A DNA stretch of 64,000 nucleotides from an uncultured archaeon. GTDB taxonomy: Archaea > Asgardarchaeota > Heimdallarchaeia > Heimdallarchaeales > Heimdallarchaeaceae. The position numbers and the translations under genes are program-made. How positions within the stretch are numbered: the stretch's first letter is position 1; the number at the start of each line of letters is the position of its first letter. The DNA is taken from assembly GCA_964534625.1 (NCBI GenBank), contig CAZHRF010000001.1, positions 1 to 64,000 of the forward strand, in the 5' to 3' direction. The notes beneath the pieces were generated by a model. The model did no database searches, was not told the origin of the DNA, and worked only from the letters and a program-made list of their open reading frames with translations. Shown here piece after piece: positions 384-39,137 of this stretch.

Positions 384-2150
384 TTATTCTATTCCATTTA
401 GTGACCAATTATTCCCCGTAATTTGTAAAATGATACTCCATATAAGTGTTAATATTAAGTTCAGTATTATTATTTTATTGTGGTTTGTTTTTTGAATGAT
501 AAAGAATTTTGTGATTATATATCCACAGTACATCCCAATTATTGTACCTGGCATTGTATGACAAAATAAGGCTGTTAAGAATATCTTTGAAATTTTCTTT
601 TTGTTTATTCCTACTTTTATTAATATCTTAATATCCTCTTCATATTCTCGAATATACATAATTCCAAAATATATTATTTTAAATGAAATAACTATGTATA
701 TTAGCGAATTTGTTATTGTATAAACATTTTGGATTCCTACTAACTCCTTATTATTTTCTATTTCATATGTTATTTTTTCCATCGTATAATTATATTGTTG
801 GATAAGTTTTATTATTTCATTATCGTTTGATAAATTTTCTACAGGTATTGTTATTATATTTGGATTTTTAGTAATATTATTTTGAATAAACGTGTTAAAC
901 TTTCCATATATACAGAAACCACCAGAAAATACATTATTTGTTATTCCTGTTATTTTGTATTCTTTATTTTCAAAAACTATTTTTTGAAGAAAACTGTTTT
1001 GTATAAAATATTTGTCTATAGAATCTCCAATTAGTATTTCATTTATTTTTTGTGGTACTTCTCCATCGATTCTTTCTATCTGTTTAAATTGGTCTTGCTG
1101 TATTCCTAATATTGTGATATAAAAGGATCTGTTTTTTCCTATCGATTTGTAGCTATTCACATCTATTTCATAGTATGTTTTTTCCTTTCCATATACTCTT
1201 GAAATGTAATTTTTATTGAAATTTTGATTGATTTTTTCTAATGATTGAATAAATGTTTCTGCCAACATTCCTTGATATGTTCCATTAATATTACTTGATT
1301 CATTGAAGTATTGATTAATATTTACTTGTTTTTGATAATACTTAACTACATCGTATTCTCCTATTATATAATAACTTAAATCCTTTTTTTGATAATGCGT
1401 ATTATAATTGTTATTTATCAATAATGGCGCTGTAATACATATTAATAATGATGTTACAATAATTATTGTAAAGATTAATGATTTTCTTATCTCACTTGAT
1501 CGTAAGAAATTTTTCATTCCTACTTTCATTGTTGTAGGTATTTTTCCAATTATACCTTCAAATTCAATTATACTCTTATATTTTGATATATTTTTAGAAG
1601 ATTTCTCAAAATCTTCTTCCTTAATATGTCCAATCACTTGATTATGTGCTATAAAACAATAAATCAAGAAAATAGTTAAATTGCTTCCTAAAACTACTGG
1701 TAATGAAATTAATCCAACGTATTTGATAAAACCAAAAATCCCATATATTATCACTATAGTTATCATTCCCGTAATTATTCCTAGTATTAGCGTTATACTT
1801 GCATTTATTATATGATTTAATATCATGTAACTGTAAATCCATTTATCTTTACCCCCAATATTTTTCATAATTTTCATATCTTGTTTTTCAACATTATATC
1901 TTTGTTCCACTCCTTTAATTGTTGCTATAATTCCTGATATTATAGCTATAGTGATAATAACTAACGAACCATATTGATATAATCTAAAAAAAGTATAATT
2001 TATTCGTTGATAAAAATAATTTTTGAGTAAGAAATAAGATCCAATACTCATAGTTACTAATGCATATGATAAAATTTGATTGATGAAAACAAGAATAGAT
2101 GGAATAGTTGTCCTCTTGAAATTCTTCCAAGCAAAATTAAATTGATTAAT
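384..2150 (-). CDS. ABC transporter permease, FtsX/MacB-like
   Basis: Two TM clusters flanking an extracellular domain; directly downstream of an ABC ATPase. Frame stays open 33 codons upstream of the ATG at 2051 (INQFNFAWKNFKRT...), so probable start is ATT at 2150. Confidence 0.8.
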   Translation of the reverse strand: MNQFNFAWKNFKRTTIPSILVFINQILSYALVTMSIGSYFLLKNYFYQRINYTFFRLYQYGSLVIITIAIISGIIATIKGVEQRYNVEKQDMKIMKNIGGKDKWIYSYMILNHIINASITLILGIITGMITIVIIYGIFGFIKYVGLISLPVVLGSNLTIFLIYCFIAHNQVIGHIKEEDFEKSSKNISKYKSIIEFEGIIGKIPTTMKVGMKNFLRSSEIRKSLIFTIIIVTSLLICITAPLLINNNYNTHYQKKDLSYYIIGEYDVVKYYQKQVNINQYFNESSNINGTYQGMLAETFIQSLEKINQNFNKNYISRVYGKEKTYYEIDVNSYKSIGKNRSFYITILGIQQDQFKQIERIDGEVPQKINEILIGDSIDKYFIQNSFLQKIVFENKEYKITGITNNVFSGGFCIYGKFNTFIQNNITKNPNIITIPVENLSNDNEIIKLIQQYNYTMEKITYEIENNKELVGIQNVYTITNSLIYIVISFKIIYFGIMYIREYEEDIKILIKVGINKKKISKIFLTALFCHTMPGTIIGMYCGYIITKFFIIQKTNHNKIIILNLILTLIWSIILQITGNNWSLNGIE

Positions 2151-2958
2151 TTTCCTTCTCCTCCTCTTGTTCTAATATATTATTGAATAAAATCTCTTCT
2201 TCAGTCAATGTGTTAATGTATAAATCTTTTGCATTTATTGGTCTATACTTAATTTTGTTAGTTTTTTTTCTTCCAGGATTGTTCTCTTTTAAGTCTATCT
2301 TTTTATTTTTAACCTCATATATTTTTGTTGCTATATCTATAAATTTTGGATCATGTGATGCTATTATTATCGTAATATCTGTTTGTTGATATAGCTCGTA
2401 GATTTTTTTACAAATTTTACTTGAGGTTTCCCAATCTAAATTGGCTGTTGGCTCATCTAAAACCAATATATATGGCTTATTAACTAATGCTCTTGCTATG
2501 GCTACCCTTTTTTTTTCTCCCGCGCTTAATTGTTCTGGAAAACTATTTTTTCTTTCTTCTATGTCAAATTTATGAAGAATTTCATCTATTTTGTTTTTTT
2601 CATGTTCTCCTTCATTTATTAATTCTTGAAATAATATTAGATTTTCATACACTGTTAATGTAGATATGAGATTTTTATCTTGAAAACTAATACCAAAATA
2701 TTTTGATCTTACATTTAATCTTTCTTCTTTCGCCAATAAACCCAAATCTAACCCTACTACTTTAACTTCACCTGTGGTTGGCTCACTTAATCCTGTTATG
2801 AGATTGATTAAGGTTGTCTTTCCGCTTCCACTTGGTCCATAGAATAAGACTAGTTCGTCTCTTTCTATTGATAGATTTATGTTTTCTAGTACTTTTATTT
2901 TTTCCCAAAATAATTGAAATATCTTTGATAGATTTTTTATTTCAATTACAGTTTCCAT
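2146..2958 (-). CDS. ABC transporter ATP-binding protein, LolD/MacB-type
   Basis: Walker A GPSGSGKT, signature LSAGE, Walker B LVLDEPTANLD, H-loop SHD. Confidence 0.95.
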   Translation of the reverse strand: METVIEIKNLSKIFQLFWEKIKVLENINLSIERDELVLFYGPSGSGKTTLINLITGLSEPTTGEVKVVGLDLGLLAKEERLNVRSKYFGISFQDKNLISTLTVYENLILFQELINEGEHEKNKIDEILHKFDIEERKNSFPEQLSAGEKKRVAIARALVNKPYILVLDEPTANLDWETSSKICKKIYELYQQTDITIIIASHDPKFIDIATKIYEVKNKKIDLKENNPGRKKTNKIKYRPINAKDLYINTLTEEEILFNNILEQEEEKEN

Positions 2959-3187
2959 ATTTTGTTTTTTTTTTATATATCTATTAGTATTTCGAATTAA
3001 CTTGTTGTCATCTCTATTTTTTCTTTATATCAAAATAGCTCTTTTTATTCTTAATACAATGCTCTTTCATATATTCATTCACATAATGGAAACCATTCTT
3101 GAATTTTTTTATCTTTTAATCAAACTGAAATTCTATAAATAGTTAATTCTCATTTACTTTTACATTATCATGTTATTATACTTTTAA

Positions 3188-3294
3188 TTGTTCACAATTT
3201 CTTTTTTATTTGTGAATGCTCCCAATCTTTATTTTGTTTATTTTCGTTTCTTTCTCCTCTAAATCGTTTTTTGTTTGTTCACAATTTCTTTTTT
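3188..3294 (+). repeat. 20-bp direct repeat in origin region
   Basis: TTGTTCACAATTTCTTTTTT at 3188-3207 and 3275-3294. Confidence 0.9.
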
Positions 3295-12415: not shown

Positions 12416-14127
<1,712 letters not shown>

Positions 14128-18568: not shown

Positions 18569-19543
18569 GGATAGCGCCTTATGCTTTCAATTTTTAAAAT
18601 CTATAATTATTAAATCGAAACACACGATGAATAGTTCTGATATACTCACTATATGCTTAATCCATCTTATTCTTAACCAAATGTCTTTTTTTAATAATGA
18701 TCCCTTCATTGTTTGATTTATTGAGACTCAATCAGAACTAATAATGACTTAATATCCAGTTACAAGACGTGTACTTGGTATAGGAGCCACTATACAATAT
18801 ATCAAGCAAGGTATAGTGTATCAACTATTCATTGAAACATAGTAAAAATGCATCTAGGCCTCACTCAACCTAACAAACGTAAATTTTTCAAAAGTTTAAA
18901 AAAAAGTATAAAAAAACATTAAGGTTTTTATAGTTTTCCTATACCATACTTTAATCTATAGGAACTAATGTAAAAGGACTTTGTCCGTCATGTCCATCAT
19001 TTCTATGAGGACCATCGAATTTAGCTTTCATTTTGATTTCACCCAATTTTTATTGGTAATTGAATAATAGAAGAAACATTCAAGATACCAACAGAAAAAA
19101 AGTGACAGTACATATGTAGAAATTATAGCTAGTTGGATTAAATCATAGTTGAAACAATCAAAGGAATCATAGAACAATATCTTTTTATCTTAGGCGAGAT
19201 AAGTAAATATACGAACATCAAGTTCGTAAATTCTGATATCTTACTTTAACCAGTAAGAAAATATTAATTTAAAATATTCATATCAATATGTATTTGTTGT
19301 TGATAATTGGTGTTTATGATCAAAACTCAAAGTATAGTGGTAGTAATTTATATACTTACTTGAAAAAGTTAATGAACACTAATTTTATATATGTAACAAA
19401 AACAACAAAGAATGCATATAAGATTAGTATCAAATCACCTCCTAGGATGAAAATCCACTAGTAATTACAATATCAAACTAGTTAGCTAACAAGAACTCTC
19501 CAAATAGGCGAAAACTGAATTATTACTATTTTAAAGTAACCTC

Positions 19544-22500
19544 AACTATGCATACGCCATGCAGTGGATGACTAGGCTAGGGTGCCGATGAAGGACGTGG
19601 TAAGCGGCGAAACGCTACGGGGAGGCGCATACAGCCATCGATCCGTAGGTCTCCGAATCGGATTTCCGGTTACAGTTGATAAGACTGTAACAACCAGTAA
19701 TGGTGGGGAACGGCGGGAACCAAAACATTCAAGTACCGCCAGGAAAAGAAAACAATCGTGATTCCGGTAGTAACGGCGAGTAAACCCGGAACAGGTCAAA
19801 CCGAATGCCTATATTAATAATATGGGTGGATGTGGTGTTTTTGACTATCAAAGGATCGTCAGAGCTAAGTCGAAATAGCTTATGAAAGCTATGCCAAAGA
19901 AGGTAATAGCCCTGTAGACGTAAACTCTCGACCTGATAGATTTCAAGATTAATGTGGCTTGGATTTGTCGCATGAATTTGGGAAAACTTAGTCCCAAACC
20001 TAAATACATCCCTAGACCGATAGCGAACTAGTAACGTGAGTGAAAGTTGAAAAGTATTCGAAATACGAGAGTGAAAAGTCCCTGAAACTGTATGGTAACA
20101 GACGTGAATGGCTTAAAAGAGTAGATTCTGAGTGAAGGAAATCATTGTGAAGTGTGAGTACGAATTCAGAGGATCGAGGTCATTCGTTCCGTCTCGAAAC
20201 ACGGGCCGAGGAGTTTAAATCTGTGGCAAGACAAAACATTAGTGGTGTCGTAGCGAAAGCAACCAGCACGCAGCCGTAAGGTCAGGTGCGACGTCCGACA
20301 AGGGCGTGAAGTCACAGGTTTAAGACCCGAAAGCAGTTGATCTATCCCTGGTCAAGATGAAGCGCTTCGAAAGGGGCGTGGAGGTCTGAAGAGGTATTGA
20401 TATGCAATTCATTCTTCTGAATTGGGGATAGTGGCAAAAGACCAATCTAAACTGCTGATAGCTGGTTCCTCCCGAAGTATAACCACAGTATAGCGTCATT
20501 GGAGGTCGTATGTGCGGTAGAGCGACGGGTGGGGGTTTCCGTGGAGTGAAATCTGCGCGCCCCTTTCCAACTCCGAACTTGCATACACCATAGAAGATGA
20601 TAGACGGGCGCATATCCGCAAGGGATATGGCCGAAAGGGGATCAACCCTACGATGGGTTAAGGGCCCTAAATCCCGGTTAAATGTTAAACAGAATGGCGT
20701 CCAACAGCGAAGACAATGAGGCGGTAAGCTTAGAAGCAGCTAACCGTTAAAAAAAGCGTAACAGCTTACTCATCGAGTTGTTGGGCCCAGAAAATGGACG
20801 GGGCTAAACCGGGTCCCGATACCTGTCCGGACTTCAAAAGAGTCTCGGGTAGGGAGGCGATCGGATTGGACAGAAGCTGGGAAGTGATTTCCAGTGGACC
20901 GTTCTGATTTGCAGATCTCGGCGGTAGTAGGAGCATAGTGAGGTGGGAATCCTCATCGCCAAAAGCCCAAGGGTTCCTTGGCACTGTTCGTCAGCCAAGG
21001 GTTAGTCGGTCCTAAGGTGGAACTTAATACGACAAACCGAAAGGGAAACAGGTTCATATTCCTGTACCATACGTATAGTCGCGGCAACGCAAGTTCCGAG
21101 CTGACACTAGTGGGTAGGTGGTCTAAAAATCAAATTTTAGTTAAATCAAGAAATCTGGGAAGAACCGTTATGGTGAGAACCAGACGAATTGATGAATAGG
21201 CGAGCCATTGGTTGCTTGCTACCATTGATCCCAATAGTCCGTGAAAAAGCGAAGAAAAATACGATTACGTATGACCGTACCCAGAACCGACACAGGTGTG
21301 GCTAGCTGAGAAGGCTAAGGCGTGTTAGGATAGTTTAGGTGAAGGAAATCGGCAAATTGGCCCCGTACCTTGGGTATAAGGGGTGCCTGGAAAGGTGAAT
21401 GCCTTACCAGGTCGCAGTGACAAGGGGCACCCGACTGTTTAATAAAAACATAGCAAACTGCAAGGGTGAAAACCTGTGTACAGTTTGTGAATCCTGGCCA
21501 GTGCAGGTGATTGAAACCGGGGTACAACTCGGCTAAGACCCTGTAAACGCCGGAGCTAACTATGAGCTTCTTAAGGTAGGCAAATGCCTAGTCTGCTAAT
21601 TACAGACGTCCATGAAGGGACCAACGAGGTGCCCGCTGTCTCCACCTAAAACCTACTGAACCCACAGTCCAGCGAACAGTCTGGAACGCACCATCGGGAA
21701 GAGAAGACCCTGTGGAGCTTTACTGCTGTCAGGGGCTGTTATACTGGTGTGCATGCATAGAATAGTCAGGAGATGTTGATGGTGTGTTCTCCGGGACACA
21801 CTGAAGTTGATCTTGAAATACTGACCATGTGCATTGGTATGACTTACCTCTTGCGAGGGGGACACCCCCTGCCTGGCAGTTTCACTGGGGCGGTAGCCTT
21901 TTGAAAAGATATCAAAAGGGCCCAAAGCCGAGCTCAACCGGGACAGAAATCCGGTGTAGAGTGCAAGGGCAAAAGCTCGGTTGACTGTGAATCCAATTAA
22001 ACGGTTCGCAGATGTTAACGCAGGGCCTAGCGATCTTTCGCATTTGCCATATGTAGGCGGCGGAAGTGACAGAAAAGTTACCCCAGGGGTAACTGCACTT
22101 CTAAACGGAAGTGGCTTAAAAACTGGGTAACAATTACATTTATTATCTTTCAAAAAGGTTTATCAAAAAGGCAAAAATTTTTGGGTCTTCCTAAACGATT
22201 TATATAGTGAGGAAATAGTCAAGTAACTTCAGTTACAGGCCTATTGATTTGAGCAGATAGATTAACCTGATATTAAGAAACCATCAGAACACAGTAAAAC
22301 TATAAGAGCCATTATTCCGTGAGTGAACGATAGATAGGTTAAGAGATTGGTAACTTGCCTTTACAGGCCGACAACTGGTCTCTAATAACCGATGTGCAAA
22401 AATATTTTGTGCAAGTGCAGCCCTGAACAGAGTTGTCGTGGGTAAGAGTTCACATCGACCTCACGGCTTGCTACCTCGATGTCGGCTCTTCCTAGCTTGG

Positions 22501-22908
22501 TGGTGATTAAGCCACCAAGAGTGGGGTTGTTCGCCCATTAAAAGGGAACGTGAGCTGGGTTTAGACCGTTGTGAGACAGGTTGGATTCTATCTGATGGTG
22601 CTGGCGGGCGATTGAGAGCAAAATCTCCACAGTACGAGAGGAACAGGCGGTTGGGGCCGCTGGTGTACCGGTTGTTCTAAAGAGCATTGCCGGGTAGCTA
22701 AGCCCTTGACGATAAGAGCGGAAAGCATCTATGCTCGAAGCGTTTCTCAAAACGAGTCGCCCATTCTGCTCTATTCTGGGGACTGGTGACAGTAACCTTA
22801 AGAGTAGACGAGAGCGCGGAAAAAAGATCCGTTTGATAGAGCGGGGGTGTAAGCGTCGAGCTTTGGCGAGATGTTTAGCCTACCGCTACTAACTGCTCAA
22901 GCATAGTT
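19544..22908 (+). rRNA. rrl: 23S rRNA, interrupted by one intron
   Basis: Terminal stem AACTATGC/GCATAGTT, CCGATGAAGGACGTGG, CCGATAGCGAAC, CTTAGAAGCAGC, CCTCGATGTCGGCTC, sarcin-ricin loop AGTACGAGAGGAAC. Confidence 0.98.
22092..22426 (+). other. 335-nt bulge-helix-bulge (endonuclease-spliced) intron in 23S rRNA
   Basis: Removal restores CCCCAGGGGTA|ACAGAGTTG; CTGCACTT/AAGTGCAG closing stem, GGGG/CCCT helix, TAA and GAA bulges. Confidence 0.9.
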
Positions 22909-23085
22909 AGGCCAAATGAAGTGGTAATATTCAGTTGCTAAATACTTGGAGAGTTCTTGTTAATTAACTAGTTATTTTTTATTTATTGCTTTTAAATTTC
23001 AAAGTGAGACATACAGATTTATTTTTGTAAAATTTTTATAAAAATGCGTGATGTGGAGTTTTTATATAATAAATAGATACTAATT

Positions 23086-31489: not shown

Positions 31490-31912
31490 ATGAGACTTGA
31501 AAGAAAAATAGCAATAGCTTTAGCAAAAGAGTTGAAACGCATAACACAAAAAGCAAAATTAGAAGCATTGGCTGTTTTAACCGCAACAGGAGATAGAATT
31601 GCTTTTTATGCTGGTGACAAACGTGCTAATTCAACGGAACTCTCGGCAATAGGTGCTGCATTGGTTGCAGCAGCTCGTTTGGCATTAGAACGCTTAAATT
31701 TTTCACCTATTAATGATGTGATGGTTAGAGGTAAAAAGGGCTTTTTGATTTTGAAATCAATTGGTGACTTTCACTTGGTTGGTGGAACCAGTGACATTGA
31801 AGAGTTCAAATCGGCCATCTCTGTTCTATCACAACACGCACCAAAAATTGCAGATATCCTAACATATGTGAATATTGATGAAGATGGTGGAATTATTGTT
31901 GATACAGATTAA
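31490..31912 (+). CDS. roadblock/LC7 domain protein
   Basis: AVLTATG...ELSAIGAAL...VMVRGKKG pattern. Confidence 0.85.
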   Translation: MRLERKIAIALAKELKRITQKAKLEALAVLTATGDRIAFYAGDKRANSTELSAIGAALVAAARLALERLNFSPINDVMVRGKKGFLILKSIGDFHLVGGTSDIEEFKSAISVLSQHAPKIADILTYVNIDEDGGIIVDTD

Positions 31913-34669: not shown

Positions 34670-35440
34670 TTGAATAATATGACTAATTTTATCCATAAAA
34701 TCATAAATCTATTTAAAACAGAGGAAACAAAATTTAAAACAGAAATGACAGAGAGACTAGAAAAAGAAAAACATATTAATTTAAAGACCGTCAATACAAA
34801 ACTGCCCATAGATAACCGTATTTGTTTATTTCAAGAAATTGTGAAAAAAAGAAGAATTAACGGTGTTTATCTTTCGAAACACTATCATTTCTTTTTAATG
34901 TCTGAAATGGATATTTCAAATATAAAAACAAAATTAAAAAGAGAAGGAAGAATAGAAATAAAAGATTTTTTCCAAAAGTGGAATGTAGACAAGAAAGTAA
35001 TCGCTAGTTTACTAAACCAATTTGAGCGGGGAATTATGGGTAAGAGAGAATATTACGCTATCTCTCACCTAGAGAATAGTTATTATTCAAAACTTAGGAA
35101 CGTTGATGAATATGAACTTGAAAAACTAGAGGACGAAAACAAAGATTTGTCTATGGAACAAATTCATAGCATCATAAATAACCTTATTGAGACAAAAAGA
35201 TTAAAGGGCACTATACAAAGCAATTCAAAATATCTTAGTGGTTCTAAATTCAGAGAGATTATGACCGAATATCTAGAAAAATTAGCAGAAAAATTTATTG
35301 AAATTTCTTTTAGTAAAATTAGCAGAGAACTAGAAATAAAAAAATCAGAAATTGAAACATTTCTGATTGAATATGTAAAAAAGAATCCCAGCAAAATTAC
35401 TATATATCCCTTAGACCAAAAGATTATATTCAAAATATAA
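34670..35440 (+). CDS. tandem winged-helix protein (PCI/DDRGK/UFL1-like)
   Basis: Repeated helix-GRIEIKDF..WNVD and NLIETKRLKGTI patterns; family is inference. Confidence 0.55.
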   Translation: MNNMTNFIHKIINLFKTEETKFKTEMTERLEKEKHINLKTVNTKLPIDNRICLFQEIVKKRRINGVYLSKHYHFFLMSEMDISNIKTKLKREGRIEIKDFFQKWNVDKKVIASLLNQFERGIMGKREYYAISHLENSYYSKLRNVDEYELEKLEDENKDLSMEQIHSIINNLIETKRLKGTIQSNSKYLSGSKFREIMTEYLEKLAEKFIEISFSKISRELEIKKSEIETFLIEYVKKNPSKITIYPLDQKIIFKI

Positions 35441-35584
35441 GATAATAGGTACATATCTTTAATAGAATAGATCTCTTTCTATCAAAAACCACTAAAATAA
35501 GATGGGATTTAGAAACGGATTAAAATTAATCTTGAAAAAGTGTTGAGTTTATTTACTAAAGTTGTTTTATTATAACAGATACAA

Positions 35585-36502
35585 ATGGAAAACAAAAAAA
35601 GAATTTCTTCAGGCATCACAGGTTTGGATGCCCTAATGTATGGAGGGCTAGTAAAAAATACAGTTAACTCTATTGTGGGAGGCAGTGGAACAGGGAAAAC
35701 AACATTTTGTTTATCATATATGCTTCAAGGATTACGCGAGGATGATCATATTCTATATCTGTCATTTGAAGAAACACCATCTAAATTGCTTGTTGAAGCA
35801 AAATCATTAGGAATAAACTTGGACAAATATGTATCAGATATAACTAATGTAATACACTTAGTGGAAAGCGAGAAAATTGTTGAATTCATTGTTGATATTT
35901 TACCTAGTTTAACAAAAAAGTTGAAAGACCAATATATCAAACATACAAGGATTATAATAGATCCATTAACACCCGTTTTATGGGAATTTCCTTCAGAAAA
36001 AGATCAGAGAAAAGTATTAACAAAAGCATACCGGTATTTGAGTTCTTTAGGTACAGTCTTACAAACTGTTGAAGAAGCCAACCCTTTCGGACAAGACAAC
36101 ATAGGAACAAGTGAAACTAGGGTCCCCATTTACCTATCAGATAGCGTAATCCAAATTCAGAACTTAGGCTTTGGAGGTAAATATAGTAGAACATGCAAAG
36201 TCATAAAATCAAGACAAACTGCTCATTACGAAGGTATTTACTCAATGAATTTTGCGTATGGATCCGGGATATCGATTGATGTAGAAACTAGAGATAATCA
36301 CATCTCAAATGAAATAAATACGGAATATGAACGGATTTTGACAGTTCTTCAAACTTGGTCCAGAGCTAAGGATCCAAAAAAGAAACTAGTGTCTCAAATT
36401 GCAAATAATCTTTTAGATAAATCAAAGAGAACGGTTACTAATAAGGAAGTCGAGTTAGTCAAAACCTTAACGGATCCAAAAATACTGCAAGAGGTAAAAT
36501 AA
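35585..36502 (+). CDS. KaiC/RAD55-like RecA-superfamily ATPase (single domain)
   Basis: SSGITGLD, Walker A GGSGTGKT, LSFEE, IIIDPL, KSR finger. Confidence 0.9.
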   Translation: MENKKRISSGITGLDALMYGGLVKNTVNSIVGGSGTGKTTFCLSYMLQGLREDDHILYLSFEETPSKLLVEAKSLGINLDKYVSDITNVIHLVESEKIVEFIVDILPSLTKKLKDQYIKHTRIIIDPLTPVLWEFPSEKDQRKVLTKAYRYLSSLGTVLQTVEEANPFGQDNIGTSETRVPIYLSDSVIQIQNLGFGGKYSRTCKVIKSRQTAHYEGIYSMNFAYGSGISIDVETRDNHISNEINTEYERILTVLQTWSRAKDPKKKLVSQIANNLLDKSKRTVTNKEVELVKTLTDPKILQEVK

Positions 36503-36864
36503 TGGATTGCGTTTGTACCATAAAATCTGATTTAATGGATATTGTCAATTTAGAAGATGTCAATGCAGCATTATTATTTAGAATAGATGGCAATGTGATT
36601 AGATCCTGTTTTAAATCAGAGTATGAACAAACACTAGTCCATATTCTTCAATGGTGTAAAGCGAATGTAAAAAAAGTTTCTGGAGAAATGAAAGACAATA
36701 ATCTTGAGAAAGTGACCTATGAGCTAAGTAATGCTTGTATAATTTTTAATCTGGTTAATGATGTCTGTTTACTCACGACAATTGCAAAATCAGATGTTAA
36801 TGATACATTATTATCTATTGAATCAAAAAGGAAATCAATAGACATTGCAAAAAAGATGGGGTGA
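36502..36864 (+). CDS. roadblock/profilin-like small protein
   Basis: 120 aa, VNAALLFRIDGNVI beta-hairpin, roadblock-type secondary-structure pattern. Confidence 0.7.
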   Translation: MDCVCTIKSDLMDIVNLEDVNAALLFRIDGNVIRSCFKSEYEQTLVHILQWCKANVKKVSGEMKDNNLEKVTYELSNACIIFNLVNDVCLLTTIAKSDVNDTLLSIESKRKSIDIAKKMG

Positions 36865-38180
36865 TTATCATTCAGATAAGTTCAAATACATTTTCTCATC
36901 GAAGCATGGATAAAATAATAGCAGATATTAAAAAAGAAATAATTGGAGATATAAATGGAAAACCCGATTTTTTATTACTAGCTTTCACAACAGGATATAA
37001 AGTCCAAGAATATAAGAAAGCACTATCAATAATAAAAAATGAGAGTGGGGCTAAAAATATCATTGGAGGGACTTTTCCAGGTGTTACAACATCAAACAGT
37101 AATCCAACGACCCAAGGTGCCTCTATCATGGCGATAAAATCAAATGATATTCACTTTGATGATCTTATTTCTTATTCGAATGTTAGAGTCAAACAGAAAC
37201 ATATTATTGGAGAATTTAATGAATTATACAGAAATAACAACAGAAAATCAAAGGTTGGATTTGCAATTTCAGCTGGACCAACATTAGAAAAAAAGGCTAT
37301 GAAACAAATGAAAGTATTAGATACTTTCTTTGCACAAAAGTTTAAAAGGATATTTAATGCTTTGGGAAAAGTTATTGAAAAAAGCATGGGAAGAAAAGGT
37401 TTTGGAACAAATGGATATATTGATACTATAATATATGAACTGGCAAAAAACAATTTTAACCACTTAATTGGGGGAGCAACAGTAGATTTAAACTTAGATT
37501 CTATTAACTATCAATTTTTCAATCAAGAACTTATGAAAAATGCCTTTGTTGGGACTATTATCTCATCAGATAAATACAGATTTGGGCAAAACTGGACATT
37601 TGACATGTCAAAAAGAACAAATACTTACAGAATCAATGATTATTTAAAATCGGGTTATTTACAAAAAATTAATGATAAAAAAGCCAGTCAAGCATATCTT
37701 GATTTAATTGGAATGGAGAGGGATTTTTATAATGATGTTTTTGAGAGCTATTCTTATACAAATCTATTATATCTGTCTGCTTTTAAGGAAAAAAAGGGTA
37801 ATTATTTACCATTTTTAACAATAAATCATCCTTCTTTAGACGGGATAATTTCTTCAATTACAAAAAATCAATTTAAGAAAAATAATTTTGATGCTAAATT
37901 ATTTACACAATCAGGTAAAGGCATCAAAAAATCTGCTGCAAACTGTGCTTCAAGAGCAAAAGCTGGGCTCAAAACCCTAAAATTAGGTCTATTCATAAAT
38001 TGTTCTAACAGATTACTAATAGCGGGAGATAAAATTTATGAAGAAAATAAAGCGATCAAAGACGTTCTGGGTACCGATGTACCATTTATGACTTTATACA
38101 CAGGTGGAGAATTCGCCATAATAAATGGAAAACCAATTAACTCAACTGTTTCTGTACATGGTTTAATCATTGGTAAATAA
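36861..38180 (+). CDS. FIST-domain sensory protein
   Basis: KPDFLLLAFT, IIGGT, LIGGA, FIST_C motifs CSNR and YTGGE. Confidence 0.85.
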   Translation: MIIIQISSNTFSHRSMDKIIADIKKEIIGDINGKPDFLLLAFTTGYKVQEYKKALSIIKNESGAKNIIGGTFPGVTTSNSNPTTQGASIMAIKSNDIHFDDLISYSNVRVKQKHIIGEFNELYRNNNRKSKVGFAISAGPTLEKKAMKQMKVLDTFFAQKFKRIFNALGKVIEKSMGRKGFGTNGYIDTIIYELAKNNFNHLIGGATVDLNLDSINYQFFNQELMKNAFVGTIISSDKYRFGQNWTFDMSKRTNTYRINDYLKSGYLQKINDKKASQAYLDLIGMERDFYNDVFESYSYTNLLYLSAFKEKKGNYLPFLTINHPSLDGIISSITKNQFKKNNFDAKLFTQSGKGIKKSAANCASRAKAGLKTLKLGLFINCSNRLLIAGDKIYEENKAIKDVLGTDVPFMTLYTGGEFAIINGKPINSTVSVHGLIIGK

Positions 38181-38212
38181 AATTTGTGGAGTTTTAAAAG
38201 AATAATGGAGTA

Positions 38213-38818
38213 ATGAACATGATGATGACACATATCAATTCAAATCAATATGGCAAGGCTGATGTTTTAAAGATTGCATTGCTTGGATTAGGTTCGGTAG
38301 GAAAAACTACGATAACAAAAAGATATACAGGAGATATTACGGACCTAGGAAATATCTCAATGACAAAGGGTGTAGATATTTCAATTAAAAGACTTTTTTA
38401 TAAAAATAAACCTATCGTTATCCAAATTTGGGATTTTGCGGGACAAAAACAATTTAAGTTTATGCTTGATATTTTTTTGAAAGGTGTAAAAGGAATACTT
38501 TATGTCTATGATATAACAGATATTGAAACATTGTTTGATTTGGATGAGTTCGTTCTTTTAGCAAGAAACTTTTTGAAAGATAATGGTCTTCAAAGTATAC
38601 CCGAAGTATTGGTTGGTAACAAAATTGATCTTGGTGAAAGTGAGATAAACATGAACGATATTAACTATTTTCTTGCTGAACATAATATCTCAAAACATTA
38701 CTTAACAAGTGGACTATATGCAACTAGTGTTTCAGAACCTTTCACATACATCATATCAAAAATCCAAAATAAAGAATCAGATAAAAAACTGTTAAGTGTA
38801 TTAAAATCAAGAGATTAA
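38213..38818 (+). CDS. Rab-like small GTPase
   Basis: G1 GLGSVGKT, G2 TKGVD, G3 WDFAGQ, G4 NKID, G5 TSG; no C-terminal Cys. Confidence 0.93.
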   Translation: MNMMMTHINSNQYGKADVLKIALLGLGSVGKTTITKRYTGDITDLGNISMTKGVDISIKRLFYKNKPIVIQIWDFAGQKQFKFMLDIFLKGVKGILYVYDITDIETLFDLDEFVLLARNFLKDNGLQSIPEVLVGNKIDLGESEINMNDINYFLAEHNISKHYLTSGLYATSVSEPFTYIISKIQNKESDKKLLSVLKSRD

Positions 38819-38828
38819 GGTAAACAAG

Positions 38829-39137
38829 ATGGAAGATAAATATATAAAGAAAACTTTCACCTGTGATTGTTGTGGTCAAAAATTGCTATTCAAAATTGAG
38901 AAGAATAAGTTAGAGGAAATATCTAGAAGTCAATTAATGAATTTTGTGATCATGCATGCAGATGATCACACGCTCATTCTATCATTAGATGCTAGGGGTG
39001 AAATCCGACGAAAAAAAGTGGCAACTATCGGTGAGGTAGAAAATAACAGTTTAAATCAATCTTATCAAAAAATCAAGGCAATTTCGGAAGCAAAAAATCT
39101 CACTGAAGCCTTTAACATCTGGCTAAAGAACTGCTGA
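38829..39137 (+). CDS. small Zn-binding protein (CxxC...HxxxH)
   Basis: CDCC...HADDH..LSLDARGEIR. Confidence 0.7.
   Translation: MEDKYIKKTFTCDCCGQKLLFKIEKNKLEEISRSQLMNFVIMHADDHTLILSLDARGEIRRKKVATIGEVENNSLNQSYQKIKAISEAKNLTEAFNIWLKNC

What the first reader, a model, noticed from the sequence alone, without database searches (positions are those of the whole stretch)
34670..39137. KaiC-like ATPase / roadblock / FIST sensor / Rab-like GTPase / Zn-protein operon: candidate undescribed Asgard signalling system
Seen: five genes with overlapping or near-touching ends (TAATG at 36499-36504, GTGA at 36861-36864, then 32-bp and 10-bp gaps), preceded by a tandem winged-helix gene. Established: FIST domains are small-ligand or heme/NO sensors (NosP); KaiC-like ATPases are proposed archaeal signalling hubs; roadblock proteins act as GAPs or scaffolds of small GTPases (MglB, Ragulator). 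Inference: a sensor-to-GTPase relay with no histidine kinase, conceptually like nutrient sensing through Rag/Ragulator. I know of no description of this exact combination.
Basis: partly seen in the sequence, partly recalled or inferred. Interest (0 to 1): 0.82.

Follow-up and report, generated by a model that had tools for sequence, protein, structure and literature searches.

The report
Asgard KaiC-roadblock-FIST-GTPase gene cluster
A Heimdallarchaeaceae (Asgard) archaeon keeps an old archaeal ATPase-roadblock-FIST cassette joined to a Rab-like GTPase and a small zinc-type protein that recurs beside or fused to GTPases across Asgard archaea. This gives a rare way to match one Asgard GTPase to likely partners, but no function has been measured.

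Summary
Five co-directional genes lie at 35585-39137: KaiC-like ATPase, roadblock, FIST, Ras/Rab-like GTPase and a small Cys/His protein. The junctions are as described, and a four-winged-helix gene lies next to them.

The order is identical in all 14 relatives examined (four other genera of the family, 40-63% identity).

My reading is that two older modules are joined here.
- A roadblock-FIST pair, often with a KaiC-like ATPase, also occurs in Thermoplasmatota, Altiarchaeota and DPANN. No GTPase accompanies it there.
- A GTPase plus "ZnP"-domain pair also occurs in at least five other Asgard families. In two proteins the domain is fused to a GTPase.

Each module is preceded by the same rare promoter-like box (TGTGG[A/T]GTTT plus an A/T-rich stretch). 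The cluster may therefore be two co-regulated transcription units rather than one operon.

A signalling role (sensor/ATPase cassette coupled to a GTPase switch) is the best reading, but it is inferred. The Rag/Ragulator analogy is not supported at the level of homology. The closest analogues are actinobacterial conservons and MglA/MglB.

This scan had already reported the same kind of cluster on other DNA (Heimdallarchaeaceae, Hodarchaeales-type and Loki-type genomes). I found no published description in the library searched. One key paper (Makarova 2017) could not be read.

The parts
34670..35440 (+). Gene for a protein of four tandem winged-helix domains (UFL1/PCI-like array). The likely true start is the ATG at 34679.
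   Evidence: - ORF.
- Pfam: PCI 29.2 bits and E3_UFM1_ligase 25.4 bits, both above cut-off.
- AF2 model with pLDDT 91.3 shows four winged-helix units.
- Foldseek top hits are UFL1/DDRGK1 8b9x (E 3e-9, TM 0.40) and SelB 1lva.
- The gene lies next to KaiC in 13 of 13 relatives that have sequence there, but on the opposite strand.
- The relatives' proteins align from window residue M4.
35540..35555 (+). Promoter-like box P1 (GTGTTGAGTTTATTTA), about 30 nt before the KaiC start codon
   Evidence: - In 11 of 13 relatives TGTGGAGTTTATTTA lies at the same distance from the ATG; the two genomes of genus g5 have CCTTTATATAA there instead.
- The 14-mer pattern is rare: 3-7 copies per genome against 1-4 for the reversed control, and 1-2 of those copies lie in this locus.
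- Function as a promoter is inferred.
35585..36502 (+). Single-domain KaiC-like (RecA-superfamily) ATPase, 305 aa, with a C-terminal extension of about 70 aa
   Evidence: - Pfam KaiC E 2.9e-33.
- A profile of the family matches solved KaiC at 9e-57, and also PH0186, SSO2452 and PH0284.
- Walker A GGSGTGKT, SFEE, and Walker B RIIID126 are conserved.
- No NCBIfam equivalog reaches its cut-off.
36502..36864 (+). Roadblock/LC7-fold protein, 120 aa, translationally coupled to the KaiC-like gene
   Evidence: - Pfam Robl_LC7 19.6 bits, below the cut-off.
- The profile of alignment A4 matches 7f8m_A (Robl_LC7) at E 5e-7 over the full length, and 9jue_D at 0.002.
- The start overlaps the KaiC stop here, and by 4 nt in all 14 relatives.
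36861..38180 (+). FIST-domain protein, 439 aa, the only one in this genome
   Evidence: - Pfam FIST_N 25.0 bits (above cut-off) and FIST_C 27.5 bits (just below).
- Relatives carry both families in precomputed Pfam.
- It is the single copy in G000.
- Homologues were found in 27 of 30 genomes of the family.
- Across 17 divergent Asgard homologues G69, G139, G182, G204, F219, C381, R384, G389, D390, P408 and E417 are invariant.
38184..38199 (+). Promoter-like box P2 (TTGTGGAGTTTTAAAA) between FIST and the GTPase gene
   Evidence: - AATGTGGTGTTTTAAAT (one variant has C) is conserved before the GTPase gene in all 14 relatives.
- In most relatives it also encodes the FIST tail KNVVF plus the stop.
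- It remains conserved where FIST ends before it (this window and genus g5), which points to a DNA-level role.
- In the window it lies only 13 nt before the ATG at 38213, so the real start may be one of the ATGs at 38219-38225 (inference).
38213..38818 (+). Ras/Rab-like small GTPase, 201 aa, with no C-terminal cysteine
   Evidence: - Pfam Ras 92.7 bits.
- G1 GLGSVGKT, G3 WDFAGQ and G4 NKID are conserved.
- The best solved relatives are Rab11, Rab1, Ypt1 and the Thorarchaeota Rab 7ezb at about 1e-19.
- It is one of about 30 small GTPases in G000.
- It groups with the ZnP-linked GTPase of genome G398 (SH-aLRT 95, quick tree).
38829..39137 (+). Small Cys/His protein ("ZnP"), 102 aa: a member of an Asgard domain family found beside or fused to small GTPases
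   Evidence: - No Pfam, NCBIfam or PADLOC hit.
- C12, C15, H43 and H47 are invariant in 14 sequences.
- The motif CxxC...HxxDH...D..G..R is kept in distant Asgard relatives.
- AF2 model with pLDDT 73: five strands and a C-terminal helix.
- No fold match in PDB.
- The nearest Atlas clusters are unnamed Asgard proteins.
- Relatives lie directly after a GTPase gene in 7 loci and are fused to a GTPase domain in 2 loci, out of 31 non-family loci.

Best explanation
The cluster is a composite regulatory system built from two older modules that were joined in the ancestor of Heimdallarchaeaceae.

Module 1 (KaiC-like ATPase, roadblock, FIST) is an ancient archaeal cassette.
- I propose that FIST binds a small molecule.
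- Through the roadblock adaptor, this changes the ATPase or autophosphorylation state of the KaiC-like ring.

Module 2 (Rab-like GTPase plus ZnP) is an Asgard-specific switch.
- ZnP is a zinc-binding partner of the GTPase, acting as regulator or effector.

The two modules are co-regulated through a shared promoter box. They probably also communicate physically, with the roadblock dimer as the likely docking platform for the GTPase, as in MglB and CvnB. A ligand signal would then be converted into the nucleotide state of one specific GTPase. The neighbouring four-winged-helix protein is a scaffold or the local transcription regulator.

Shown here: gene content, conservation of order, the separate wider distributions of the two modules, intact catalytic motifs, the shared DNA motif, and the recurrence of ZnP beside or fused to GTPases.

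Inferred: ligand binding by FIST, every protein contact, the direction of signal flow, promoter function, and the output.
For: 1. The order KaiC-Robl-FIST-GTPase-ZnP is identical in 14 of 14 relatives from four other genera, at 40-63% identity. The KaiC/Robl start-stop overlap is conserved and the other gaps are 1-55 bp.

2. FIST homologues were found in 27 of 30 genomes of the family, and the system is single-copy in G000.

3. A second family of the same class (f5, FIST homologue in 22 of 22 genomes) has GTPase-KaiC-Robl-FIST-MFS in the four loci examined. Genome G397 has KaiC-Robl-FIST-MFS.

4. Outside Asgard, 51 of 58 FIST loci with enough upstream sequence have a co-directional roadblock-like gene. 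22 also have a KaiC-like gene, and none has a GTPase, ZnP or the winged-helix protein.

5. ZnP-domain relatives follow a GTPase gene in families f33, f26, f3 and f31, and are fused to a GTPase domain in f3 and f20. That is 9 of 31 loci, where roughly 1% of genes are small GTPases.

6. The GTPase next to ZnP in G398 is sister to the operon GTPases (SH-aLRT 95).

7. ATPase and GTPase catalytic motifs are intact.

8. The rare box TGTGG[A/T]GTTT precedes both KaiC and the GTPase gene across genera.

9. The winged-helix gene stayed next to KaiC despite a rearrangement in this genome.

10. Established knowledge:
- Roadblock proteins regulate small GTPases in MglA/MglB and in conservons (PMC10933270; PMC13343842; PMC13621833).
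- KaiC-like ATPases were proposed as archaeal signalling hubs (Makarova 2017, cited in PMC5847659).
Against: - No expression, binding or activity data exist.
- The five-gene form is limited to one family, so its conservation could partly be inheritance rather than selection.
- The second promoter-like box and the independent existence of both modules allow for two unrelated neighbouring units.
- Orthology of the f1 and f5 operon GTPases is unresolved. The AU test rejects a strict f1+f5 clade (p 0.0005). It does not reject the clade once each group's nearest sister is included (p 0.56).
- FIST is assigned by moderate Pfam scores, and no solved structure matches it by sequence.
- In other lineages the roadblock-FIST pair sits beside enzymes and a transporter: FAD oxidoreductases, LuxE/LuxC and MFS. 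This could mean a metabolic rather than a signalling role.
- The promoter reading rests on conservation and position only.
Confidence: 0.5

Rival explanations
1. Two functionally unrelated units happen to be neighbours. One is a KaiC-Robl-FIST cassette and the other a GTPase-ZnP pair. Each has its own promoter, and they have stayed together within one family by descent only.
For: - Both modules occur independently elsewhere.
- A promoter-like box lies before the GTPase gene, and T-runs follow it in relatives.
- The five-gene form was found only in family f1, plus one contig of G086 that is probably misbinned.
Against: - Strict adjacency is kept over 40-63% protein identity and four other genera, while the flanks were rearranged in this genome.
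- The same rare box precedes both units.
- A small GTPase is also attached to the same cassette, at the other end, in family f5.
Confidence: 0.2
2. The roadblock-FIST(-KaiC) cassette controls or assists a membrane or lipid-related process rather than acting as a general ligand sensor. In Heimdallarchaeaceae the Rab-like GTPase links it to membrane remodelling.
For: - In non-Asgard archaea the neighbours are FAD-dependent oxidoreductases (FAD_binding_3 type).
- In Loki-type genomes the neighbours are LuxE acyl-protein synthetase, LuxC acyl-CoA reductase and a gelsolin-domain protein.
- In f5 and G397 the neighbour is an MFS transporter.
- The GTPase is Rab-like.
Against: - The neighbours differ between lineages, as expected for a regulatory cassette plugged into various outputs.
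- No lipid enzyme or membrane protein lies in the Heimdallarchaeaceae cluster.
- The GTPase has no lipidation motif.
Confidence: 0.2
3. The cluster is an archaeal homologue of the eukaryotic Rag GTPase/Ragulator nutrient-sensing machinery. This is the stronger form of the first reader's analogy.
For: - A roadblock protein and a small GTPase are encoded together.
- Pfam Gtr1_RagA gives a weak hit of 23.8 bits.
Against: - The Gtr1_RagA hit lies under a much stronger Ras hit of 92.7 bits.
- The protein is 201 aa, without the C-terminal roadblock domain that defines Rag GTPases.
- The best solved relatives are Rabs.
- The roadblock's nearest solved relative is a stand-alone Asgard roadblock.
- The roadblock-FIST pair predates the GTPase association.
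Confidence: 0.04

Closest known systems
Actinobacterial conservons / G-protein systems (CvnA-D; mfp operon)
   Same: [quoted passage not shown] In conservons the roadblock is thought to be the GAP and the DUF protein the GEF (PMC13343842, PMC13621833, PMC11343762).
   Different: - The ATPase here is KaiC/RecA-like, not a histidine-kinase-like protein.
- A separate FIST protein is present.
- No component gave a DUF742 (CvnC) hit in Pfam.
- The GTPase is Rab-like with a catalytic Gln, not MglA/CvnD-like.
- The host is an Asgard archaeon.
- The resemblance is functional. No homology of the systems is shown.
MglA/MglB polarity switch (Myxococcus, Thermus)
   Same: A Ras-superfamily GTPase is encoded with a roadblock-fold protein that forms dimers and regulates the GTPase (PMC10933270).
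   Different: - The roadblock here is translationally coupled to a KaiC-like ATPase and followed by FIST.
- It occurs with those two genes, and without any GTPase, in many archaea.
- The GTPase keeps DxxGQ.
- No GAP activity or binding was tested successfully.
Archaeal KaiC-like ATPase signalling hubs (Makarova, Galperin and Koonin 2017, as cited in PMC5847659; ArlH/FlaH)
   Same: A single-domain KaiC-like ATPase is encoded with putative input and output proteins, in an archaeon with few classical two-component parts nearby.
   Different: - I could not read that paper, so I cannot say whether the KaiC-roadblock-FIST triad is described there.
- The join to a Rab-like GTPase-ZnP pair is Asgard-specific in my data.
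- The protein is below the cut-off for ArlH and for every NCBIfam KaiC subfamily.
Asgard small GTPases and roadblock proteins (Tran et al. 2024, PMC10933270)
   Same: The GTPase and roadblock are of the same protein kinds. The GTPase scores 5.7e-19 against the solved Thorarchaeota Rab 7ezb, and the roadblock profile matches 7f8m_A.
   Different: That study states that MK-D1 GTPase genes are generally not in operons with roadblock, longin or TRAPPC3 genes, which makes partners hard to assign. Here the linkage is conserved.
Rag GTPases / Ragulator (LAMTOR)
   Same: Conceptually, both use roadblock-fold proteins as a platform for a small GTPase downstream of a metabolite signal.
   Different: - The GTPase has no C-terminal roadblock domain.
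- It is Rab-like by sequence.
- There is no heterodimeric GTPase pair.
- It is not a family member.

Membership tests
KaiC-like ATPase (Pfam PF06745, RecA superfamily) | Profile match above the curated cut-off | tested here: met
   115.6 bits against a cut-off of 26.6. The family profile matches solved KaiC at 9e-57.
KaiC-like ATPase (Pfam PF06745, RecA superfamily) | Walker A, Walker B and catalytic glutamate | tested here: met
   GGSGTGKT, RIIID126 and SFEE (E62 invariant) are present in 20 aligned sequences.
Bona fide circadian KaiC | Two tandem KaiC domains (about 500 aa), scoring above the equivalog cut-off | tested here: not met
   The protein has a single domain of 305 aa. NCBIfam KaiC scores 97 bits against a cut-off of 408.
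Roadblock/LC7 (PF03259) | Profile match above the curated cut-off | tested here: inconclusive
   19.6 bits against a cut-off of 23.
Roadblock/LC7 (PF03259) | Full-length similarity to a solved roadblock protein | tested here: met
   The profile of alignment A4 matches 7f8m_A (Robl_LC7 domain protein) at E 5e-7, positions 3-119 of 120, and 9jue_D at 0.002.
FIST (PF08495 + PF10442) | N- and C-terminal FIST domains above cut-off | tested here: met
   FIST_N scores 25.0 against 23.2 (met). FIST_C scores 27.5 against 28.5 (just under) in the window protein. Most relatives carry both in precomputed Pfam.
FIST (PF08495 + PF10442) | Binding of a small ligand or heme (as in NosP) | not testable with these tools
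   No solved relative was found by sequence. The structure was not predicted here.
Ras superfamily, Rab-like | G1-G4 nucleotide-binding motifs and a Ras-family profile match | tested here: met
   GLGSVGKT, DFAGQ and NKID are present. Pfam Ras scores 92.7 bits. The top solved hits are Rab11, Rab1 and Ypt1.
Ras superfamily, Rab-like | C-terminal cysteine motif for prenylation | tested here: not met
   The C terminus ...LKSRD has no Cys, and the relatives end ...SKYxxx.
Rag/Gtr GTPases | C-terminal roadblock domain fused to the G domain | tested here: not met
   The protein is 201 aa with a G domain only. Gtr1_RagA scores 23.8 bits under a Ras hit of 92.7 bits.
Actinobacterial conservon (CvnA-D) | Histidine-kinase-like CvnA and a DUF742 CvnC | tested here: not met
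   No such Pfam hit appeared in any of the six proteins at E up to 0.01. The ATPase is KaiC-like.
Zinc-binding C2H2-type small domain (ZnP) | Four invariant metal ligands | tested here: met
   C12, C15, H43 and H47 are invariant in 14 sequences and largely kept in distant relatives. Metal binding itself is not testable here.
Zinc-binding C2H2-type small domain (ZnP) | Match to a known zinc-finger fold or family | tested here: inconclusive
   - No Pfam hit.
- Foldseek best E is 0.1.
- VIA-align best Z is 3.6.
- The Atlas neighbours are unnamed Asgard proteins; one bacterial Zn_ribbon_21 cluster has TM 0.46.
UFL1 (E3 UFM1 ligase) N-terminal winged-helix array | Profile match above cut-off and structural similarity | tested here: met
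   PF09743 scores 25.4 bits against 23.2. The Foldseek top hit is the UFL1/DDRGK1 chimera 8b9x at E 3e-9, but with TM only 0.40.
UFL1 (E3 UFM1 ligase) N-terminal winged-helix array | UFM1 and UFC1 encoded in the same genome | tested here: inconclusive
   Ufm1 (PF03671) was not found in G000, which is 89.8% complete. UFC1 scores 24.1 bits, under the cut-off of 25, at C94:2286-2561.
Known anti-phage defence systems (PADLOC) | Any component matching a defence-system model | tested here: not met
   The only hit is a weak P-loop match of the KaiC-like protein to mad8 (24.4 bits). The other five proteins have none.

The most novel reading that the evidence does not exclude
ZnP defines a new, Asgard-specific class of small-GTPase partner: a zinc-binding regulator or effector domain with no counterpart among known GAPs, GEFs or GDIs. 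The cluster as a whole is then a ligand-gated G-protein system. In it, a FIST sensor and a KaiC-like ATPase set the state of a Rab-like GTPase through a roadblock platform. That would be an archaeal example of the regulatory logic later elaborated in eukaryotes.
Probability: 0.25. Interest if true: 0.8.

Novelty: new variant of a known kind. Interest (0 to 1): 0.62.

Why it matters
Asgard archaea encode tens of Ras/Rab/Arf-like GTPases (about 30 in this genome). Almost nothing is known about which regulators act on which GTPase.

Tran et al. 2024 state that gene order generally gives no help in matching them. This cluster is an exception. It names a short list of candidate partners for one Rab-like GTPase: a roadblock, a FIST protein, a KaiC-like ATPase and a small zinc-type protein.

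The zinc-type domain recurs next to GTPases, or fused to them, in several Asgard families. All the proteins are small and soluble-looking, so binding and GTPase assays are feasible with recombinant material.

A positive result would give the first operon-defined GTPase regulatory circuit in the archaeal lineage closest to eukaryotes. It would also give a function to a widespread archaeal roadblock-FIST cassette.

Tried and rejected
- **Complex prediction.** GTPase with ZnP gave no answer (score 0.00, controls not run). This is no evidence either way.
- **RNA evidence.** No RNA holder was listed for the stretch, so co-transcription could not be examined and read laying was not used.
- **Single-protein scan of genome contigs** with FIST found nothing. 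The diverse FIST alignment A7 was too divergent for that tool. The alignment of non-Asgard relatives (A8) worked.
- **ZnP fold.** Foldseek against PDB and VIA-align wide gave no convincing match.
- **Longer fused forms of ZnP** were not found in the 5.8-billion-protein collection. This is weak evidence because that search needs shared words. Fusions were found instead by genome search.
- **Pfam accessions PF27410/PF27411**, named in an earlier scan note, are not in this Pfam copy, so that claim was not checked.
- **Makarova et al. 2017** could not be read by DOI or by PMC id.
- **Independent recruitment of the GTPase in f1 and f5.** I considered this, but the AU tests give opposite answers depending on whether each group's sister is included. 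I make no claim.
- **The TGTGG box as the generic promoter consensus of the lineage.** I rejected this because the pattern is rare genome-wide.
- **Inverted repeats flanking the flipped winged-helix and second roadblock genes.** Only AT-rich noise was found.
- **A defence-system reading** was rejected.

Full report
**Observation**

The window is archaeal: it carries 16S and 23S rRNA genes and has about 30% G+C. Source names attached to near relatives of the FIST protein place it in Candidatus Heimdallarchaeaceae, Asgard.

Six co-directional ORFs lie between 34670 and 39137.
- TAATG at 36500-36504;
- GTGA at 36861-36864;
- gaps of 32 bp and 10 bp.

Pfam gives KaiC (115.6 bits), Ras (92.7), FIST_N (25.0, above cut-off), FIST_C (27.5, just under), Robl_LC7 (19.6, under) and nothing for the last, 102-aa protein.

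The roadblock assignment is firmer with a family profile, which matches the solved Asgard roadblock 7f8m_A over its whole length (E 5e-7).

The upstream protein hits PCI and E3_UFM1_ligase above their cut-offs. It folds with pLDDT 91 into four tandem winged helices. Its best structural matches are the UFL1/DDRGK1 array and SelB.

**Conservation**

A FIST homologue was found in 27 of 30 genomes of the same family.

I fetched 14 loci from four other genera. All have KaiC-Robl-FIST-GTPase-ZnP in this order on one strand, at 40-63% identity to the window proteins. KaiC and Robl overlap by 4 nt in every one, and the other gaps are 1-55 bp.

The winged-helix gene is always next to KaiC. It is divergent in all relatives and co-directional only here. 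The flanking genes are also rearranged in this genome, so the adjacency survived a rearrangement.

G000 has one FIST, one ZnP, about 30 small GTPases and two clear KaiC-like genes.

**Module 1: the cassette is older than the five-gene cluster**

A profile search of 400 Asgard genomes and inspection of neighbourhoods show three further arrangements.
- A second family of the same class (f5, FIST homologue in 22 of 22 genomes) has GTPase-KaiC-Robl-FIST-MFS-SAM hydroxide adenosyltransferase in the loci examined. Earlier scan notes call this arrangement Hodarchaeales. My tools give only group codes, so I did not verify that name.
- Genome G397 has KaiC-Robl-FIST-MFS.
- Loki-type families have roadblock, a roadblock-related 330-aa protein, gelsolin, FIST, LuxE and LuxC.

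Outside Asgard, FIST relatives occur in Thermoplasmatota, Altiarchaeota, Methanobacteriota and DPANN genomes.
- Of 58 loci with at least 2 kb upstream, 51 have a co-directional roadblock-like gene.
- 22 of them also have a KaiC-like gene.
- None has a GTPase, ZnP or the winged-helix protein (examples).

The core is therefore roadblock-FIST, often with KaiC. The GTPase is an Asgard addition.

**Module 2: GTPase plus ZnP**

ZnP has four invariant ligand candidates: C12, C15, H43 and H47. It has no known family or fold.

A profile search found weak but consistent relatives across Asgard genomes. They share CxxC...HxxDH...D..G..R.

Of 31 such loci outside the family:
- seven have the ZnP-domain gene directly after a small-GTPase gene (families f33, f26, f3 and f31);
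- two encode the domain fused N-terminally to an Arf/Ras-like G domain (G032 in f3, Pfam Arf 1.7e-14; G165 in f20).

About 1% of genes encode small GTPases, so this is far above chance. Related genomes are not independent, however.

In G398 the pair is followed by two V4R-domain proteins. The G398 GTPase is sister to the operon GTPases (SH-aLRT 95, quick tree).

Whether the f1 and f5 cassette-linked GTPases are orthologous is open. A strict f1+f5 clade is rejected (p 0.0005). The clade including each group's sister is not rejected (p 0.56). I chose both groupings after seeing the tree.

**Regulatory signals**

A box TGTGGAGTTTATTTA lies about 30 nt before the KaiC start in 11 of 13 relatives. 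The window has GTGTTGAGTTTATTTA at 35540-35555.

A very similar box, AATGTGGTGTTTTAAAT, precedes the GTPase gene in all relatives. The window has TTGTGGAGTTTTAAAA at 38184-38199.
- In most relatives this second box also encodes the last residues of FIST (KNVVF, then stop).
- It is still conserved where FIST ends earlier, which argues for a DNA-level role.

The pattern is rare in these genomes: 3-7 copies against 1-4 for a reversed control, with one or two of the copies in this locus (for G000). It is therefore not simply the lineage's generic promoter.

I read the boxes as BRE/TATA-type promoters with a shared specific element. This implies two co-regulated units, or an operon with an internal promoter. 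That is an inference, and no RNA data could be obtained.

**Mechanism**

The most likely reading is a signalling system in which:
- FIST and the KaiC-like ATPase, bridged by the roadblock protein, form the sensing and energy-using part;
- the Rab-like GTPase with ZnP forms the switch and output.

The ATPase and GTPase motifs are intact. The GTPase has the catalytic Gln and lacks a lipidation motif.

Ligand binding, all contacts and the direction of flow are inferred. The one complex prediction I could run (GTPase with ZnP) gave no answer.

**Comparison with known systems**

- The closest functional analogues are actinobacterial conservons: sensor ATPase, roadblock, a small GEF-like protein and a Ras-like GTPase (PMC13343842, PMC13621833, PMC11343762).
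- MglA/MglB is a second analogue (PMC10933270).
- Membership in these systems, in Rag/Ragulator, in bona fide KaiC clocks and in known defence systems fails on defining features.
- Tran et al. 2024 note that MK-D1 GTPase genes are generally not in operons with roadblock, longin or TRAPPC3 genes. A conserved linkage is therefore unusual and useful.

**Novelty**

Searches of the paper library for KaiC/roadblock/FIST/archaea and for FIST/Asgard/GTPase found no description.

The paper most likely to mention the KaiC-roadblock-FIST triad (Makarova 2017) was not available.

This scan had already reported the same type of cluster on other genomes. I re-derived their main claims independently: the family-wide operon, the f5 arrangement, the Loki arrangement and the non-Asgard roadblock-FIST pair.

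New in this report, as far as I can see:
- the bipartite promoter structure;
- the evidence that ZnP belongs to a GTPase-associated domain family with fusion forms.

Noticed in passing
window 34670-35440: The four-winged-helix protein passes the Pfam cut-off for E3_UFM1_ligase, and its best structural match is human UFL1/DDRGK1 (TM only 0.40). Ufm1 was not found in the 89.8%-complete genome. A UFC1-like ORF at G000:C94:2286-2561 scores 24.1 bits, just under the cut-off of 25.
   Followed up: partly
window 31490-31912 and 34670-35440: Two single genes lie on the opposite strand compared with all relatives examined, while their neighbours keep their relative order: the second roadblock gene and the winged-helix gene. 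No flanking inverted repeats were found.
   Followed up: partly
window 31490-31912: A second roadblock/LC7 gene lies between the DNA polymerase small-subunit gene and AglB/STT3. It is 88% identical to its counterpart in two genomes of another genus (L014, L022), far more conserved than the cluster's roadblock (about 50-56%). It probably has a housekeeping role.
   Followed up: no
L097 (G398:C1:16500-21500), 475-3256, minus strand: In another Asgard family the GTPase closest to the window's is followed by a 300-aa protein with an N-terminal ZnP domain and then two V4R-domain proteins. V4R is the fold that Tran et al. relate to TRAPPC3. This is a second candidate GTPase-regulator operon.
   Followed up: partly
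L066 4495-10893; the same layout in L067, L068, L074 and L075 was judged by ORF sizes and my own profile hits only: Loki-type genomes keep this gene order: roadblock, a roadblock-related protein of about 330 aa, a one-domain gelsolin, FIST, LuxE acyl-protein synthetase, LuxC acyl-CoA reductase.
   Followed up: partly
L104 2400-3518; L107 290-1397 (Pfam-checked); L108 2259-3372 (same layout by ORF size only): In Loki-type genomes a stand-alone ZnP-like gene follows an RNase III-domain gene of about 243 aa rather than a GTPase gene. The domain is therefore not exclusively GTPase-linked.
   Followed up: no
L071 (G086:C96:1-6848): A genome assigned to another family carries a short contig with the complete Heimdallarchaeaceae-type cluster. 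Its FIST scores E 1.7e-240 against the family profile. This is probably a misbinned contig rather than a transfer.
   Followed up: no
window 12555-14034 and 19540-22912: The 16S and 23S rRNA genes are separated by about 5.5 kb that contains several ORFs of 160-635 aa on the same strand. The rRNA genes are not in a compact operon.
   Followed up: no
window 38213-38225: The GTPase ORF begins with four in-frame ATG codons in its first five codons (M-N-M-M-M). The promoter-like box ends only 13 nt before the first one. The real start may be a later ATG on a leaderless or short-leader mRNA.
   Followed up: no
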